Notes: generated from the sequence alone by a model not told the origin. DNA of 64,000 nt from Candidatus Nomurabacteria bacterium (GCA_943348755.1 CALQYS010000003.1:2482-66481), one strand, 5' to 3'. Numbered from the stretch's first letter, positions 43,149-48,831 are shown. Numbers and translations: made by a program.

Positions 43149-43736
43149 TTACATTCGGGAATACGAAACTCCTTTTCCAGTTCTTCCACTTTGTTTAATT
43201 TTTCCTTCCTTCTCCAAGATTGAAAGATACCGAGTTGCTGTTGCATCAGATACATGCAAATACTTTTCTACTTCGTCGTTTGTAAGTTTAGAGTGTTGTA
43301 AGAACAAAGACATAACCCTATCCAATTTTTTACGCTTTCGAAATTGAATTGTGTTTCGAGCAGAGATTAAAAGTTTTCGTGCGAGCGAAGATTTATTTTC
43401 CAACGGCTCATTTACTGGTATTTGAGCCGTTGGTTTATCCGCCTCAACGCTTTCAGCTTCGCCAGAGGAATAATCTTGGTTTTCAGGGGTTTTAGGCTCA
43501 TTTTCGGGTTGGCTTATTTCAGCATCTCCTTTGTTTATAGCACTATTATTACTTTCAGCACTAAAACCATCCCGGGGGGCTTCTGGGGCCTCAGGAGGCA
43601 TATTCGAGAGTTTAGAAGCCATTGTAGGGCTAGAATCCGAGGTGGGGATATCTTGGGTTGTATTTGGGTCGTCTGGCATATATTTTAATTTTCTAAAACT
43701 GACTTTCTCCCATCGTGGTATGAACAAGTGTTGCAA
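43149..43736 (-). CDS. Winged-HTH DNA-binding protein with a disordered Pro/Glu/Ser-rich N-terminal region
   Basis: 195 aa. The C-terminal LTNDEVEKYLHVSDATATRYLSILEKEGKIKQSG is HTH-like, and the N-terminal 130 aa are low-complexity. Confidence 0.4.
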   Translation of the reverse strand: MQHLFIPRWEKVSFRKLKYMPDDPNTTQDIPTSDSSPTMASKLSNMPPEAPEAPRDGFSAESNNSAINKGDAEISQPENEPKTPENQDYSSGEAESVEADKPTAQIPVNEPLENKSSLARKLLISARNTIQFRKRKKLDRVMSLFLQHSKLTNDEVEKYLHVSDATATRYLSILEKEGKIKQSGRTGKGVSYSRM

Positions 43737-44380
43737 TCAGGATTATGTCCGGGATACGAACCATTTAAAAGCTTAACCATGTCTTTAAGTTTTTTCTCAA
43801 CTACCTTAATATCAATTTTTACTAAATCAACATGACTATCAAATTTTACTTCTATTGAGGGATCATTTTTATCTTTCACAAAATAATGCAAAAGATACGC
43901 ACGATTAGAAACCTCATATCCGTGTTTTGAAAACATAAAACCATACGCAGTGAGTTGGTCTATGTAATATTTTTGTTTGTCTTCACCCGGAGCATTACCA
44001 GATGACTTATAATCAGCGGGAACAAGTCGTCCATCAGATTCCATGAGCACATCATCTATTTTCCCCACAAGAACATATCCTACTTTTTCATTTTCAACCT
44101 TCAAAGCATTTGTGCTTGATCGCCACTCATTAAGAGTTTCTAAATCAAGAAATGGTTTTATTCCTTCCTTAGTTAATTCTTTGGCTTCCGGAGGGAAATT
44201 ACCATCAACACGATACTTGTCGTATCTATTTTTGAGAATGCTATCCATCGCGCTATTTAAAAGAAGTGGAAGTATGGATTGTTTTTTATAATTATTATCA
44301 ACCCAAAAACAAGATTGACACTCTGTGTATTTATACAAGCTACTCGGACTTAATTTCCATAATCCTTCCTTTGTTTTCAT
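43685..44380 (-). CDS. PD-(D/E)xK nuclease with a Cas4/RecB-like four-cysteine cluster
   Basis: 231 aa. N-terminal ECQSC and C-terminal DCNTC Cys pairs flank a D...D-Y-K core (IDDVLMESDGRLVPADYK). Confidence 0.4.
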   Translation of the reverse strand: MKTKEGLWKLSPSSLYKYTECQSCFWVDNNYKKQSILPLLLNSAMDSILKNRYDKYRVDGNFPPEAKELTKEGIKPFLDLETLNEWRSSTNALKVENEKVGYVLVGKIDDVLMESDGRLVPADYKSSGNAPGEDKQKYYIDQLTAYGFMFSKHGYEVSNRAYLLHYFVKDKNDPSIEVKFDSHVDLVKIDIKVVEKKLKDMVKLLNGSYPGHNPDCNTCSYHDGRKSVLEN

Positions 44381-44385
44381 AAAAT

Positions 44386-47256: not shown

Positions 47257-47422
47257 ACCCCTTCTGCGGGCAATCTCGCCGAATTTAATAAAATATTAGC
47301 CGAGGTTTTGCGAAATCCTTTTCCCCAAAAAATGCTTTCGCAAAACCGAGTCCGCTTTTACATTTGATGCTTCTGTCGAATTTTTAGTAAAATAGGTTCG
47401 AGCTTCGTTTAATAACCCCGCA
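47240..47422. repeat. IR-R: 183-bp perfect inverted copy of 42492-42674, immediately upstream of the RM gene
   Basis: Compared base by base with the reverse complement of IR-L and found identical. The identity stops exactly at CCCCGCA on the outer side. Confidence 0.8.
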
Positions 47423-47655
47423 AGAACTAAACTTAGGTCATTTTTGGCAAAATTTTCGCGCGCTTCGCGTAGCGAAGCGTAATGTTTGAAAGGGTTTCCG
47501 AATGCATGGCGGGATTTCAAATGCAGGTTCGAGCCGAAGATTTTTTGGAGGGAGAGTTTTTTGGAGGGGAGGTCGGCTACAAATCAAATACAACACTTGC
47601 CCCACCCTTCCCGTGCGCGTGTTAAATTCCTCCCTAAAGTAATTTTGGAAATTGC

Positions 47656-48831
47656 CTAGTCGTAAATAGTTGGAATTCCAGTATCTGAAGAGTTTTTCTC
47701 AAATTCTACCGGTGGGACAAATCCGTAATGATTAAGAGCACCTTCTAAAAATCCGAAAAATTCTGGATCAGGTGAGGGAAACTTCGGATGAGGCACAACA
47801 ACCCCGATCATTTCCCCTTGCTGTGCTTCTTTTTCAGTTTGATAATGGTAAGAGAAATTAGTAAAAAATGCCGCGTTCAATGGATATTCTTCTGGGGGAT
47901 AATTTTTAAGTTTATCTTCTACTAATTCTTTTACTTCTTTTACCCAAGGTTTTTCATTAAAAGGAATATTGGGCGTAAGTGGAGAATTTATATCGATGAA
48001 AACTGCGAATGGAACATCTTTTGGATTCTGTTCAAGAGCATCTTTAAACAAACGCCACACGGCACTAGCAGATAGTAATTTATCTTGTTCTGGCTGATTT
48101 CCTGTCTCATGAAGCACGCCTTCGCGATGCCTACTTTTTACTTCCACTGCTAAAATAAAACCATTAGAATGTTTTGCGATAAATTCACATCTCTTACCAA
48201 TGGATTTTTCATCTGTGAAAGTAATTTCGCATCCTAGACGAGCAAATATCGCTGCTATAGCAATTTCATAGCGAGCACCCTGATATTCATTTCTAGATTT
48301 GAGTCTTTCTAAAAGAGAATCAGGTAATTTTTGCATATGACTTAGCGACACTACATCAAAAGCAAGCAATAATAAACTTTTACTATAGCCATCGGGTTTA
48401 GCTGCCCAAATATTGGTTTTGCCTAATCTTTTTGCAGTATTATTATTTTTTTGTATCCATTCCTGAAATTTTTCAAAACATATAGCTATAAAATGTCTGT
48501 CCGCTGGTGGAAGACTTTGTTGTTCTATCCACCAACTTATTCCAATCTCCTCCTGAAGTATCGCAATCAGAAACATATGGAACGTTTCTTCCACTGGTCG
48601 ATTTGAATACACCTTTCTTCCAAAGGCTCGTGCAGACATTTCTTTGAAAAGAATCGGTGGCACAAGTGGAATGTGAATTCCTGCTTTTCTCAACATTTCA
48701 TGCTCGGCATTTTTCCTTTGAAAATACCTCATTACTTCTATGGGAACCCCAGTGTTTTCCTTATCCAAATGGCATTTTTTATATTTCTTGCCACTACCAC
48801 AATGACATTTATCGTTGCGTCCAAGTTTCAT
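47656..48831 (-). CDS. SEC-C metal-binding motif protein with a PD-ExK-like core (putative nuclease)
   Basis: 391 aa. The N-terminal KCHCGSGKKYKKCH is a SEC-C zinc motif. The central ITFTDEKS...FILAVEVKSRH fits a D...E-x-K restriction-endonuclease-like pattern. Confidence 0.4.
   Translation of the reverse strand: MKLGRNDKCHCGSGKKYKKCHLDKENTGVPIEVMRYFQRKNAEHEMLRKAGIHIPLVPPILFKEMSARAFGRKVYSNRPVEETFHMFLIAILQEEIGISWWIEQQSLPPADRHFIAICFEKFQEWIQKNNNTAKRLGKTNIWAAKPDGYSKSLLLLAFDVVSLSHMQKLPDSLLERLKSRNEYQGARYEIAIAAIFARLGCEITFTDEKSIGKRCEFIAKHSNGFILAVEVKSRHREGVLHETGNQPEQDKLLSASAVWRLFKDALEQNPKDVPFAVFIDINSPLTPNIPFNEKPWVKEVKELVEDKLKNYPPEEYPLNAAFFTNFSYHYQTEKEAQQGEMIGVVVPHPKFPSPDPEFFGFLEGALNHYGFVPPVEFEKNSSDTGIPTIYD

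What the first reader, a model, noticed from the sequence alone, without database searches (positions are those of the whole stretch)
43149..48831. Defence-island gene set: fused type IIG RM, a Cas4-like 4-Cys PD-ExK nuclease, a low-complexity HTH protein and a SEC-C plus PD-ExK protein
The 956-aa protein combines a PD-ExK N-terminus, a gamma-class N6A methyltransferase (motif I xDPACGSGSFL, motif IV NPPY) and a long C-terminal target-recognition region. The adjacent 231-aa protein has two Cys pairs flanking a D..D-x-K core, which resembles Cas4/RecB-type Fe-S nucleases. Such a nuclease is not a standard partner of type IIG enzymes. The 391-aa SEC-C protein has its own D...EVK core. Together these suggest a composite or possibly uncharacterised defence module rather than a plain RM.
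Basis: partly seen in the sequence, partly recalled or inferred. Interest (0 to 1): 0.65.

Follow-up and report, generated by a model that had tools for sequence, protein, structure and literature searches.

The report
Restriction-Cas4 cargo in recombinase-borne cassette
The four genes are real, but they are not one composite defence machine: a restriction enzyme and a Cas4-like nuclease ride as swappable cargo between two perfect 183-base inverted repeats, inside a roughly 7.9-kb mobile element that a large serine recombinase appears to have inserted next to a tRNA gene of a small-genome (Patescibacteria/CPR) bacterium.

Summary
All four ORFs and their motifs are confirmed. The RM enzyme is more likely 917 aa than 956, and the HTH protein 176 aa than 195. 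The "composite defence module" reading is only partly supported.

1. The type IIG enzyme is complete and needs no partner.
2. The Cas4-like protein belongs to a tight, Patescibacteria-wide solo-Cas4 clade. That clade often sits as the last, closely spaced gene of unrelated RM or defence operons (type I, II, IIG, IV, PLD-SNF2 plus MTase). It is a generic RM-associated nuclease, not a IIG-specific one.
3. The HTH protein is a backbone gene of a repeat-bounded cassette, and the SEC-C protein lies outside that cassette. Neither shows conserved linkage to the RM or Cas4 genes.

New finding: RM, Cas4 and HTH lie between perfect 183-nt inverted repeats. The repeat belongs to a family found in 56 metagenome contigs. 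Where it is paired it is always inverted, and it flanks variable cargo (DpnII- and NgoPII-type RM, pilin-like genes and others). Large serine recombinase 3' ends abut either an arm or a tRNA gene through a shared TGCG. This implies a tRNA-Asp-integrated element spanning 42492-50428. Cargo inversion is suggested but not proven.

The parts
41876..42490 (-). HAD-family hydrolase. This is the chromosomal flank. Its ATG lies 1 nt from the outer end of arm 1, so the flank-arm junction is the proposed attL.
   Evidence: Pfam HAD_2 8e-25. Junction sequence ...TTTTTTATCATC|TGCGGGG. In L064 a remnant element lies between tRNA-Asp and a run of unrelated small ORFs followed by tRNA-Thr x2 and prfB; L064 has no HAD homologue.
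42492..42674 (+). Inverted-repeat arm 1, written outer to inner. Its outer end TGCGGGGTTATTAAACGAAGC is the proposed recombinase half-site. Its core holds hairpin H1 (dyad 42567-42610) and hairpin H2 with a G-rich loop.
   Evidence: 100% complementary to 47240-47422. Family members occur in 56 contigs. H2 shows covariation. A covariance model finds only these two copies in 64 kb.
42675..43148 (.). GC-rich structured non-coding spacer. It contains a 48-bp palindrome at 42795-42842 and a long-range helix pairing about 42754-42776 with 43045-43068. It is conserved next to the HTH-side arm in about 20 contigs.
   Evidence: Fold z-scores are -6.2 and -7.9 on the two strands. No Rfam family matches. 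Homologues were found. The motif AACGGCTCAWWTAC occurs 4 times against 0.12 expected.
43149..43679 (-). Protein with a low-complexity N-terminus and a C-terminal winged HTH. It is a backbone gene of the cassette family. A second copy of the palindrome lies inside it at 43400-43433.
   Evidence: Weak HTH_11, FaeA and DeoR hits. Homologues at 41-84% aa occur in 9 arm-bearing contigs. In 8 of these the order is HTH, GC-rich spacer, arm.
43685..44380 (-). Solo Cas4-family PD-(D/E)xK nuclease with CxxC...CxxC. It is cargo and sits 5 nt downstream of the RM gene.
44386..47139 (-). Type IIG restriction-modification enzyme (PD-ExK nuclease, gamma N6A methyltransferase and TaqI_C-like TRD). It is cargo.
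   Evidence: closest solved relative is the CamA methyltransferase plus TRD, 1.4e-25.
47240..47422 (-). Inverted-repeat arm 2, outer to inner on the minus strand. H2 is followed by GGGTTTTTT and, 100 nt further on, by the RM start codon.
47423..47655 (-). Remnant 3' end of a second (L103-type) serine recombinase gene. It reads into arm 2, forming a dead attP-like junction. It overlaps the spurious 74-aa ORF at 47296-47520.
   Evidence: blastx gives 88% identity over 52 aa to the C-terminus of the L103 recombinase. The same junction occurs in L103 and L068.
47656..48831 (-). SEC-C zinc-motif protein with a probable PD-ExK-like core. It lies inside the element but outside the repeat-bounded cassette.
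   Evidence: invariant E189, E216, E230, K232; pLDDT 82; SfsA 1.8e-3; EndoMS/NucS; VRR_NUC.
48852..50468 (+). Large serine recombinase (Resolvase, Recombinase and Zn-ribbon domains). Its last 40 nt overlap tRNA-Asp in antisense, which is the proposed attR. Its N-terminal 56 codons are mosaic.
   Evidence: XisF/Ccr-like. A close relative sits at the same tRNA-Asp with entirely different cargo.
50429..50503 (-). tRNA-Asp(GTC), the integration target.
   Evidence: ARAGORN and Rfam. It is 100% identical in L064, where only a 0.44-kb remnant element follows it.

Best explanation
Window 42492 to about 50428 is a single 7.9-kb integrative element. A large serine recombinase (LSR) appears to have inserted it between the 3' end of tRNA-Asp and the start codon of a HAD hydrolase gene in a Patescibacteria genome.

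**Layout.** In order the element reads: flank | arm1 > GC-rich spacer, HTH, Cas4-like, type IIG RM < arm2 | dead LSR 3' remnant, SEC-C, LSR > | tRNA-Asp. The two 183-nt arms are a perfect inverted repeat and enclose a cargo slot. In related elements the same arms enclose other cargo. The LSR's own 3' coding end together with the arm's outer end (...CGTCCGxTxx TGCG GGGTTATTAAACGAAGC) behaves as attP. The same LSR end joined to the antisense of a tRNA is the integrated junction.

**Shown.**
- The gene identities.
- The repeat family and its strictly inverted pairing.
- The sharp outer boundary of the arm.
- The two alternative partners of LSR 3' ends.
- The variability of the cargo.

**Inferred.**
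- The LSR catalyses integration.
- The arms let cargo invert and/or be exchanged.
- The cargo works as follows. The IIG enzyme methylates self DNA and cuts unmodified invader DNA. The co-expressed Fe-S Cas4-like exonuclease resects the resulting ends. That would do the job RecBCD/AddAB does in other bacteria, but whether this genome lacks those enzymes was not checked.
- The HTH protein binds the conserved palindromes as a cassette regulator or recombination accessory.
For: **Repeat is real.** An independent MEGAHIT contig equals 4565 nt plus 2 x 141 nt of arm. Two other contigs stop 141 nt into an arm.

**Repeat family.**
- The dyad occurs in 56 contigs and in no IMG/VR contig.
- Arm identity between elements is 72-96%.
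- All 11 paired cases are inverted, with the inner ends facing the cargo.
- In most paired cases arms within an element are 97-100% identical, against 72-96% between elements; two pairs are lower (L076 86-91%, L079 86-93%).
- A covariance model finds no further copy in the window or in 590 kb of other Patescibacteria loci.

**Cargo identities.** DpnII RM, NgoPII plus a C5 methyltransferase, an Hsp70-like protein, and pilin-like genes.

**Link to the LSR.**
- 26 of 53 arms with outer flank available have an LSR gene or LSR remnant within 1.5 kb. In 19 of them it reads into the arm, and in most of these it ends within -10 to +121 nt of the boundary.
- LSRs that read away from an arm end inside tRNA genes: Asp, Val, Glu and Ser.
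- A TGCG core is shared between the arm and tRNA-Asp junctions.

**Near-empty site.** L064 has tRNA-Asp, a 0.44-kb remnant, and then, after several unrelated small ORFs, tRNA-Thr x2 and prfB.

**Same LSR, other cargo.** An LSR from the same 90%-identity cluster (84% nt) sits at the same tRNA-Asp with different cargo.

**Cas4 and RM association.**
- Upstream neighbours are rich in RM and defence families. Downstream neighbours are housekeeping genes.
- Gaps to HsdR, the IIG enzyme and T5orf172 are only 2-5 nt.
- The fold is Cas4/AdnAB/EXO5/ACE1-like.
- There is precedent for Cas4-family partners of non-CRISPR nucleases (PMC12094033) and for solo-Cas4 next to RM in DPANN (PMC5704561).
Against: - No empty site, circular junction or read-level data could be examined.
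- LSRs normally recombine attP with attB. They do not normally recombine two like sites, so inversion may be RecA-mediated or may not occur at all.
- The two cargo flips at 99.8-100% identity (L100 against L071, and L067 against L090) could be arbitrary assembler joins at repeats of 126 nt or more.
- Contigs with the LSR|arm junction may be chromosomal rather than excised forms.
- Only about a third of Cas4-like loci have RM upstream. Others follow HtpX or exonuclease VII genes.
- The arm's hairpins covary like an RNA. The arm may therefore be mainly a transcript or terminator element rather than a recombination site.
- The promoter calls are no better than shuffled sequence.
Confidence: 0.6

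Rival explanations
1. One reading: RM, Cas4-like, HTH and SEC-C proteins are subunits of one composite, uncharacterised defence system.
For: - The genes are co-directional.
- Gaps of 5 nt link RM, Cas4 and HTH.
- Three of the proteins carry nuclease-type folds.
- No PADLOC system other than RM and Cas4 models claims them.
Against: - No other locus repeats the set.
- Cas4-like homologues at 62-96% identity have unrelated neighbours on both sides.
- None of the 56 arm-bearing contigs, including the 9 that carry an HTH homologue, encodes a Cas4-like protein or a homologue of this RM.
- SEC-C homologues sit by GlyRS/TPR genes or by a DGR.
- In this window the SEC-C gene is separated from the RM operon by arm 2 and a dead recombinase remnant.
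Confidence: 0.06
2. The Cas4-like protein is a resident DNA-repair or housekeeping nuclease of these small genomes. It merely marks the edge of an insertion hot spot, so its adjacency to RM genes is positional and not functional.
For: - Downstream genes are housekeeping while upstream genes vary.
- In L012 the gene directly follows HtpX, which also lies upstream in this window.
- Hudaiberdiev et al. report mostly vertical inheritance and ordinary selection for solo-cas4 (PMC5704561).
- About two thirds of loci show no RM within 6 kb.
Against: - The clade is far more conserved than core proteins of the same genome pairs: 72% against 42% for PrfB, and 74% against 60% for HtpX.
- It collapses to a single 50%-identity representative.
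- Nucleotide homology of 89% is confined to the ORF plus or minus 6 nt, with both flanks unrelated.
- Gaps of 2-5 nt to diverse R genes leave no room for att scars.
- Here the gene lies inside a mobile cassette.
Confidence: 0.3
3. The arms are simply the conserved 3' UTR, terminator or small-RNA module of this recombinase gene family. They were duplicated in inverted orientation by past rearrangements. They are not recombination sites, and the cargo does not invert or exchange by site-specific recombination.
For: - The H2 stem covaries while its loop is conserved.
- A U-run follows H2 on the cargo-5' side.
- Arms follow LSR stop codons.
- Cargo flips can be explained by assembler ambiguity or by homologous recombination.
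Against: - The outer boundary is razor-sharp at |TGCGGGG, with at least 6 unrelated partner flanks.
- The same 4-nt core joins LSR ends to tRNA-Asp.
- The site ...CTTCGT-N7-TGCG-N10-ACGAAG has the imperfect dyad typical of an LSR attP (sequence).
- Pairing is strictly inverted, and near-identity of the two arms is seen in most elements.
Confidence: 0.25
4. The 183-nt inverted repeat is an assembly artefact (a chimeric join).
For: - The window comes from a metagenome assembly.
- One related contig, L085, is an obvious fold-back with 1875-nt palindromic ends.
Against: - Independent MEGAHIT and Logan assemblies give the same repeat-bounded unit.
- The same architecture recurs in 11 unrelated contigs from other studies.
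Confidence: 0.03

Closest known systems
Type IIG restriction-modification enzymes (Eco57I/MmeI-like; PADLOC REase_MTase_IIG)
   Same: It is a single polypeptide with an N-terminal PD-ExK nuclease. It has a gamma-class N6A methyltransferase (DPACGSG, NPPY) and a TaqI_C-type TRD. It matches the model over its full length.
   Different: Nothing essential differs. The recognition sequence is unknown. The closest solved relative covers only the methyltransferase and TRD (CamA).
Solo-Cas4 / PDDEXK_1 nucleases of CPR and DPANN (Hudaiberdiev et al. 2017, PMC5704561)
   Same: It has a RecB-type core with QhxxY and four conserved Cys. It lies outside CRISPR loci in a small-genome organism. Adjacency to RM genes was already noted for DPANN.
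   Different: - The Cys are arranged CxxC...CxxC, not one N-terminal plus three C-terminal (the 1+3 pattern is from my own knowledge and was not checked here).
- It scores below the NCBIfam Cas4 cut-off.
- The clade is unusually tight (62-96% identity) across many Patescibacteria lineages.
- It is closely spaced to R genes of several RM types.
ACE1, the Argonaute-associated Cas4-family enzyme (PMC12094033)
   Same: It is a Cas4-family nuclease encoded next to, and cooperating with, a non-CRISPR defence nuclease. It is a structural neighbour (Foldseek 5.5e-4).
   Different: The partner here is an RM enzyme, not a pAgo. No functional data exist. Sequence identity is only about 10%.
Large-serine-recombinase integrative elements (phage-type integrases; SCCmec Ccr; XisF)
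   Same: It has the three-domain LSR. The proposed att site lies next to the recombinase gene. The hybrid junctions share only a few bases, and there are no long direct repeats. Cargo is variable behind a conserved recombinase.
   Different: - The recombinase ORF itself runs across the crossover site into a tRNA gene or into the arm.
- The element carries an internal cargo slot bounded by inverted repeats of 97-287 nt, each preceded by a live or dead LSR 3' end.
Invertible segments with an adjacent serine invertase (Mu G/Gin, P1 C/Cin with 0.6-kb repeats, Hin)
   Same: It is a multi-kb segment between inverted repeats with a serine recombinase gene beside it. Opposite orientations are seen in otherwise identical contigs. 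The details of the Gin/Cin/Hin systems are from my own knowledge.
   Different: - The recombinase is of the large type, not a 190-aa invertase.
- No split gene or external promoter is evident that inversion would switch.
- Inversion is not proven.
Transposon-like RM units flanked by inverted repeats (Furuta, Abe & Kobayashi 2010, PMC2853133)
   Same: Whole RM systems, including a IIG example, are bracketed by inverted repeats and behave as insertions.
   Different: - Those repeats are 26-65 bp, unique to each unit and flanked by 8-bp target duplications.
- Here the arms are 97-287 nt and form a conserved family shared by many cargos.
- They lack target duplications and are tied to an LSR.

Membership tests
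Type IIG RM enzyme | Nuclease, methyltransferase and specificity domains in one polypeptide | tested here: met
   PADLOC REase_MTase_IIG 2.4e-96, covering aa 45-953. Pfam Eco57I, N6_Mtase, TaqI_C and a weak HSDR_N hit.
Type IIG RM enzyme | Catalytic motifs: PD...(D/E)xK, motif I (FxGxG-like) and motif IV (NPPY) | tested here: met
   RPD...ESK, DPACGSGSFL and GNPPY can be read directly in the translation.
Type IIG RM enzyme | Cleavage at a fixed distance from an asymmetric site; methylation of that site | not testable with these tools
   This needs methylome calling or enzyme assays.
Cas4 (CRISPR-associated) | RecB-like PD-(D/E)xK core with the QhxxY motif | tested here: met
   Invariant D109/D110, D123-Y-K125 and Q142...Y146. 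Fold matches to Cas4 structures 7mi4, 8d3l and 4ic1.
Cas4 (CRISPR-associated) | Four-Cys Fe-S cluster module | tested here: inconclusive
   Four invariant Cys are present, but as CxxC (21, 24) plus CxxC (216, 219) rather than the canonical one plus three (the canonical pattern is from my own knowledge). Metal content is unknown.
Cas4 (CRISPR-associated) | Encoded with cas1/cas2 or a CRISPR array; reaches the family score threshold | tested here: not met
   - TIGR00372 scores 35.5 bits against a cut-off of 65. Pfam Cas_Cas4 scores 18.1 against 22.7.
- No cas gene was called in the loci that came with Pfam annotation, and Cas1/Cas2 are not among the most frequent families in the pooled upstream and downstream scans.
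- The whole window was not scanned for CRISPR arrays.
Large serine recombinase integrative element | Resolvase catalytic domain, Recombinase domain and zinc ribbon | tested here: met
   Pfam scores 2e-18, 4e-9 and 3.5e-11. NCBIfam XisF and Ccr hits are sub-threshold.
Large serine recombinase integrative element | Defined insertion with hybrid junctions that share only a short core; attP beside the recombinase gene | tested here: met
   - The TGCG core is shared by LSR-end|tRNA-Asp' and LSR-end|arm junctions.
- L064 is a near-empty comparator.
- LSR ends abut arms or tRNAs in many contigs.
Large serine recombinase integrative element | Demonstrated integration or excision | not testable with these tools
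Site-specific invertible segment (Gin/Cin/Hin kind) | Segment bounded by inverted repeats with a recombinase gene alongside | tested here: met
Site-specific invertible segment (Gin/Cin/Hin kind) | Both orientations present in one population | tested here: inconclusive
   L100/L096 against L071, and L067 against L090, are flipped at 99.8-100% identity. They come from different samples, and assembler ambiguity cannot be excluded.
Site-specific invertible segment (Gin/Cin/Hin kind) | Small (about 190 aa) serine invertase | tested here: not met
   The recombinase is 538 aa and of the large type.
Transposon-like RM unit (Furuta 2010) | Short target-site duplication outside the inverted repeats | tested here: not met
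   The flanks TTATCATC and AAGAACTA are unrelated.
PD-(D/E)xK nuclease fold (SEC-C protein) | Restriction-endonuclease-like fold with an acidic...ExK catalytic core | tested here: inconclusive
   - Invariant E189, E216 and E230-x-K232.
- Foldseek matches SfsA at 1.8e-3 (probability 0.95), EndoMS/NucS (0.77) and VRR_NUC (0.75), but no hit reaches E <= 1e-3.
- Pfam finds only the SEC-C motif.

The most novel reading that the evidence does not exclude
The arms define a previously undescribed family of LSR-borne, tRNA-integrating elements in Patescibacteria. Each carries a built-in cargo slot flanked by two inverted attP-like modules. A module consists of a live or dead recombinase 3' end, a TGCG core and a two-hairpin arm of about 120 nt.

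The slot can be flipped, and its contents can be swapped between elements, in the manner of natural recombinase-mediated cassette exchange. That would explain why identical arms hold IIG-plus-Cas4, DpnII, NgoPII, Hsp70-like or pilin-like cargo.

Within that frame, the tight solo-Cas4 clade would be a portable end-processing partner. Patescibacteria would bolt it onto any RM system, perhaps in place of RecBCD/AddAB, whose absence from this genome was not checked here.
Probability: 0.4. Interest if true: 0.75.

Novelty: new variant of a known kind. Interest (0 to 1): 0.6.

Why it matters
Patescibacteria rarely carry CRISPR and are thought to rely on RM systems. How those systems move and diversify among these uncultured epibionts is poorly known.

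This locus gives a concrete, testable vehicle with four defined parts:
- a serine recombinase whose own coding end forms its attachment site;
- tRNA targets;
- a repeat-bounded slot that holds interchangeable defence and surface genes;
- a compact LSR with defined candidate attP and attB sequences, which could be tried as a genome-engineering tool.

Separately, a highly conserved Cas4-family nuclease recurs behind R genes of several RM types. This makes the long-standing question of what solo-Cas4 does in small genomes directly testable with a two-gene construct.

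Tried and rejected
- **Known RNA families.** Rfam found nothing beyond tRNAs and 16S, either at gathering thresholds over the whole window or at permissive thresholds on 42450-43200. The only other hits were microRNA-like noise.
- **tRNA fragments in the island.** I looked for displaced tRNA-Asp 3' fragments or direct repeats as att scars and found only 7-12-nt chance matches. A target-site duplication around the arms is absent.
- **Viral contigs.** IMG/VR holds neither the Cas4-like clade nor the arm dyad, so a phage origin is not supported.
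- **Arms in the other loci.** No long inverted repeats were found in L015, L028, L059 or L055. No arm was found in any Cas4-like, SEC-C or LSR-relative locus by blastn or by covariance model. The arms are therefore not a feature of Cas4-like loci in general.
- **L064 inversion idea.** I first read L064 as evidence that the up/SEC-C/LSR block had inverted. I dropped this once the "up" region proved to be a recombinase 3' remnant.
- **L106 against L063.** This pair looked like a flip but is uninformative, because its repeat extends to at least 287 nt.
- **Promoters and terminators.** Consensus scans gave no more sites than shuffled sequence. No expression logic for inversion could be derived.
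- **Literature.** Searches found no description of such elements in CPR/Patescibacteria.

Full report
**1.

The region carries four co-directional minus-strand ORFs.

- **RM enzyme.** It hits Eco57I, N6_Mtase, MmeI_Mtase and TaqI_C. It matches a PADLOC type IIG model over its full length (2.4e-96). The motifs RPD...ESK, DPACGSGSFL and NPPY are visible in the translation.
- **231-aa protein.** It is PDDEXK_1 (1e-11) and hits Cas4 models weakly. It falls below the NCBIfam and Pfam Cas4 thresholds.
- **HTH protein.** It has only sub-threshold winged-helix hits.
- **SEC-C protein.** Only its N-terminal zinc motif is recognised.

Two coordinates need correcting. The RM most likely starts at the ATG at 47139 (917 aa) and the HTH gene at 43679 (176 aa), as independent gene calls have it.

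The surroundings are housekeeping genes:
- on one side pyrG, ftsX, ftsE, prfB, two tRNA-Thr genes and a HAD hydrolase;
- on the other side tRNA-Asp, two tRNA-Met genes, gatA, gatC and htpX.

A 538-aa large serine recombinase (LSR) lies at 48852-50468 on the plus strand. Its last 40 nt overlap tRNA-Asp in antisense.

**2. The Cas4-like protein**

- **Spread and conservation.** A database search returned 288 relatives. The 120 listed are 67-96% identical. Genome hits spread over Giovannoni-, Adler-, Kaiser-, Colwell-, Campbell-, Berkel-, Woyke-, Peri- and Saccharibacteria at 62-77% identity. Twenty-nine aligned members keep C21, C24, C216, C219, D109/D110, D123-Y-K125 and Q142...Y146.
- **Fold.** The AlphaFold model has pLDDT 86. 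Its best PDB matches are the AdnA/AdnB nuclease domains, Cas4 in Cas4-Cas1-Cas2 complexes, SSO0001, human EXO5, the Argonaute-associated ACE1, RecE and Dna2. A sequence search of the PDB found nothing.
- **Tightness of the clade.** In the 50%-identity library the clade collapses to one full-length representative. The next relative scores 1e-56, and 611 proteins score 1e-10 or better.
- **Comparison with core proteins.** In the same genome pairs core proteins are much less alike. PrfB is 42% identical against 72% for the nuclease, and HtpX 60% against 74%.
- **Context turnover.** Against a 96%-identical homologue, nucleotide similarity (89%) begins 6 nt before the ATG and ends 2 nt after the stop. 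Both flanks are unrelated.
- **Not viral.** The clade is absent from IMG/VR.

**3. Its neighbours**

I pooled ORFs of 100 aa or more within 6 kb in about 34 non-redundant loci.

- The commonest upstream families are ResIII, SWI2_SNF2, N6_N4_Mtase, AbiEii, HSDR_N, T1R_D3, Methylase_S, EcoRI_methylase, GmrSD, HNH, MvaI_BcnI and TdeIII.
- The downstream set is ordinary metabolism and envelope genes.

Directly upstream of the nuclease, usually 2-19 nt away, are:
- type I HsdR (L004, L010), or HsdR followed by YgjP (L015); in L024 an HsdR lies about 1.4 kb upstream;
- TdeIII (L011, 58 nt away);
- an Eco57I-type methyltransferase with a PLD-SNF2 helicase (L059);
- T5orf172 (L051);
- EcoRI-type methyltransferase plus GmrSD, with small ORFs between (L041).

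Other loci have HtpX or exonuclease VII upstream.

So the RM-then-Cas4-like arrangement recurs but is neither universal nor specific to type IIG. Hudaiberdiev et al. already recorded that solo-Cas4 is common in CPR and sits next to RM genes in DPANN, with unknown function (PMC5704561). ACE1 is a precedent for a Cas4-family nuclease that helps a non-CRISPR nuclease (PMC12094033).

**4. The SEC-C protein**

It belongs to its own Patescibacteria family at 42-80% identity. Its contexts vary: GlyRS and a TPR protein, the same pair with an RM inserted upstream, or a DGR with integrases and an LSR.

The model has pLDDT 82. It gives only weak matches to PD-ExK nucleases: SfsA 1.8e-3, EndoMS/NucS and VRR_NUC. 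The family keeps E189, E216 and E230-x-K232 invariant.

**5. The inverted repeat**

Positions 42492-42674 and 47240-47422 are 100% complementary over 183 nt. They enclose the GC-rich spacer, HTH, Cas4-like and RM genes.

The repeat is not an artefact of this assembly. A MEGAHIT contig from ERZ27280317 is exactly the 4565-nt interior plus 141 nt (the k-mer length) of each arm. The contigs carrying SEC-C stop 141 nt into arm 2.

**6. A repeat family**

- **Distribution.** The 44-nt dyad inside the arm (GGTTTTGCGAAA-N20-TTTCGCAAAACC) occurs in 56 metagenome contigs and in no viral contig. The arm aligns to them at 72-96% identity, mostly over positions 63-183.
- **Pairing.** In all eleven contigs with two copies the copies are inverted. 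Their inner ends face an enclosed segment of 1.1-7.6 kb.
- **Concerted evolution.** In most elements the two arms are 97-100% identical (two pairs, L076 and L079, are 86-93%), whereas arms of different elements are 72-96% identical. The two copies therefore appear to evolve in concert.
- **Structure.** The conserved core has an invariant 12-bp hairpin. A second hairpin has a stem that covaries (for example GC 23, CG 15 and UA 2 at one pair) around a conserved loop, AGGAGGGGTyTGGGGAGGAAT. On the cargo-5' side it is followed by GGGCTTTTT.
- **Copy number.** A covariance model finds only the two arms in the 64-kb window. It finds nothing significant in 590 kb of other Patescibacteria loci. The arm is thus not a generic dispersed repeat.

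**7. Cargo and backbone**

The genes that start 55-100 nt inside an arm differ from element to element:
- Dam-type methyltransferase, DpnII and a second methyltransferase;
- NgoPII and a C5 methyltransferase;
- a D12-methyltransferase fusion;
- an Hsp70-like protein;
- a 1261-aa protein of unknown family;
- a DnaA_C/sigma-70-region-4 protein;
- pilin-like proteins.

None of the 56 contigs encodes a Cas4-like protein or a relative of this RM.

By contrast, homologues of the HTH protein occur in 9 contigs. In eight of them the order is HTH, GC-rich spacer, arm. The spacer and its palindrome AACGGCTCAWWTAC...GTAWWTGAGCCGTT recur in about 20 contigs.

The HTH protein therefore appears to belong to the cassette backbone, and the RM and Cas4-like genes are cargo.

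**8. Link to the recombinase**

- **Proximity.** Of 53 arms with outer flank available, 26 have an LSR gene or an LSR C-terminal remnant within 1.5 kb. Nineteen of these read into the arm, most ending within -10 to +121 nt of its boundary.
- **The "up" region.** The window's 47423-47655 is such a remnant. It is 88% identical over 52 aa to the C-terminus of the L103 recombinase.
- **Sharp boundary.** The arm's outer boundary is sharp at |TGCGGGGTTATTAAACGAAGC. At least six unrelated sequences lie to its left.
- **tRNA partners.** LSRs that read away from an arm end inside tRNA genes on the opposite strand: Asp in the window and L060, Val in L076, Glu in L112 and Ser in L084.
- **Shared core.** The window's LSR end continues ...CGTCCGTTAC-TGCG-CGATCGACC, which is tRNA-Asp antisense. 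Its L089 relative continues ...CGTCCGATGA-TGCG-GGGTTATT, which is the arm. The dead remnant shows the same two partners, in L064 and in the window.

This is the pattern expected if LSR-end|arm is attP, LSR-end|tRNA is one integrated junction and HAD-flank|arm 1 is the other.

**9. Element boundaries**

- **L064.** It carries tRNA-Met and a 100% identical tRNA-Asp. Then comes a 0.44-kb remnant (115 nt of recombinase remnant, about 110 nt of GC-rich spacer, and one arm). Several unrelated small ORFs follow, then tRNA-Thr x2, prfB, ftsE and ftsX. It is a near-empty version of the same site.
- **L060-L062.** A close relative of the window's LSR (84% nt; assigned to the same 90%-identity protein cluster) sits at the same tRNA-Asp, gatA and gatC flank. 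Its cargo is entirely different. The homology breakpoint falls inside the recombinase N-terminus at about 49020.

I therefore place the element at 42492 to about 50428.

**10. Inversion**

Two pairs of contigs from different samples have the enclosed segment in opposite orientation relative to the same flank:
- L100 and L096 against L071, at 100% identity;
- L067 against L090, at 99.8-100% identity.

L086 and L112 differ in the orientation of the recombinase gene relative to an arm. Several elements also have 147-171-nt inverted repeats bracketing the recombinase gene itself.

Together with the near-identity of arms within most elements, this suggests recurrent recombination between the arms. 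Assemblers can, however, join repeat-bounded segments arbitrarily. I treat inversion as likely but unproven. Whether the LSR or homologous recombination does it remains open.

**11. Mechanism, with status**

*Shown:* the domain content of all proteins, the cassette architecture, the family-wide cargo variability and the junction sequences.

*Inferred:*
- LSR-mediated integration at tRNA-Asp.
- The arms act as paired attP-like modules that allow flipping or exchange of cargo.
- The IIG enzyme acts as a standard self-methylating, invader-cutting enzyme.
- The Cas4-like Fe-S nuclease is co-expressed to resect RM-generated ends.
- The HTH protein binds the palindromes.

The promoter and terminator scans were uninformative.

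**12. Novelty**

RM systems flanked by inverted repeats (PMC2853133), solo-Cas4 near RM genes, LSR islands and invertible segments are each known. I found no description of this combination, or of this arm family, in the searchable literature.

I rate it a new variant of known kinds.

Noticed in passing
window 44381-44454 and L059 9169-9253: Nucleotide homology (83%) between this locus and L059 runs about 74 nt upstream of the Cas4-like ATG. It reaches into the last roughly 22 codons of two Eco57I/TaqI_C-type genes that are otherwise only about 26% identical. This suggests a recombination joint inside the RM 3' end, so the nuclease may travel with that short tail.
   Followed up: partly
window 48852-49019: The recombinase is mosaic. 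Its first 56 codons are about 48% identical to its closest relative (L060-L062), while the next 354 codons are about 90% identical. Everything upstream is unrelated.
   Followed up: partly
L055 5456-5583 and 5977-6104: A SEC-C homologue lies beside a diversity-generating retroelement: RVT_1, bAvd and a 128-nt repeat pair at 88% identity that looks like TR/VR. Tyrosine integrases, Prim-Pol and another large serine recombinase are nearby.
   Followed up: no
L085 1-1875 and 4321-6195: The contig is a 1875-nt perfect terminal palindrome around a 2.4-kb arm-bounded segment. This is most likely an assembler fold-back at the inverted repeat. It is a warning for anyone reading orientation from such contigs.
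   Followed up: partly
L076, L103, L107 and L112: Inverted repeats of 147-171 nt bracket the recombinase gene itself. One copy is the gene's own 3' end and the other is a remnant beside the arm. L086 and L112 show the recombinase in opposite orientation relative to the arm.
   Followed up: partly
L079 329-1752: This is the smallest arm-bounded unit, 1.1 kb. It holds only a 142-aa fragment of a CCA-adding enzyme and a 77-aa wHTH, and it abuts the prfB start directly.
   Followed up: no
L008, L014, L019, L023, L026 and L032 (record titles): Contigs carrying this Patescibacteria-type nuclease are filed under Alphaproteobacteria, Nitrospiraceae, Acidiferrobacterales, Flavobacteriaceae or Gammaproteobacteria MAGs. 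L023 duplicates L022, which is labelled Azambacteria. This may be mis-binning or real transfer outside the CPR.
   Followed up: no
window 40765-41664: The prfB ORF starts at a TTG and is 299 aa. Homologues in other loci are 291-352 aa. The usual programmed +1 frameshift site upstream was not examined.
   Followed up: no
L028 5508-8318 and L104 3118-4653: Large proteins combining Bac_DnaA_C and sigma-70 region 4 domains appear twice. One is upstream of a Cas4-like gene and the other is cargo in an arm-bounded cassette. Their function is unknown.
   Followed up: no
window 42488-42492: The HAD start codon lies 1 nt from the arm's outer end, with no recognisable ribosome-binding site. In the predicted empty site the ATG would sit 3 nt after tRNA-Asp.
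   Followed up: no
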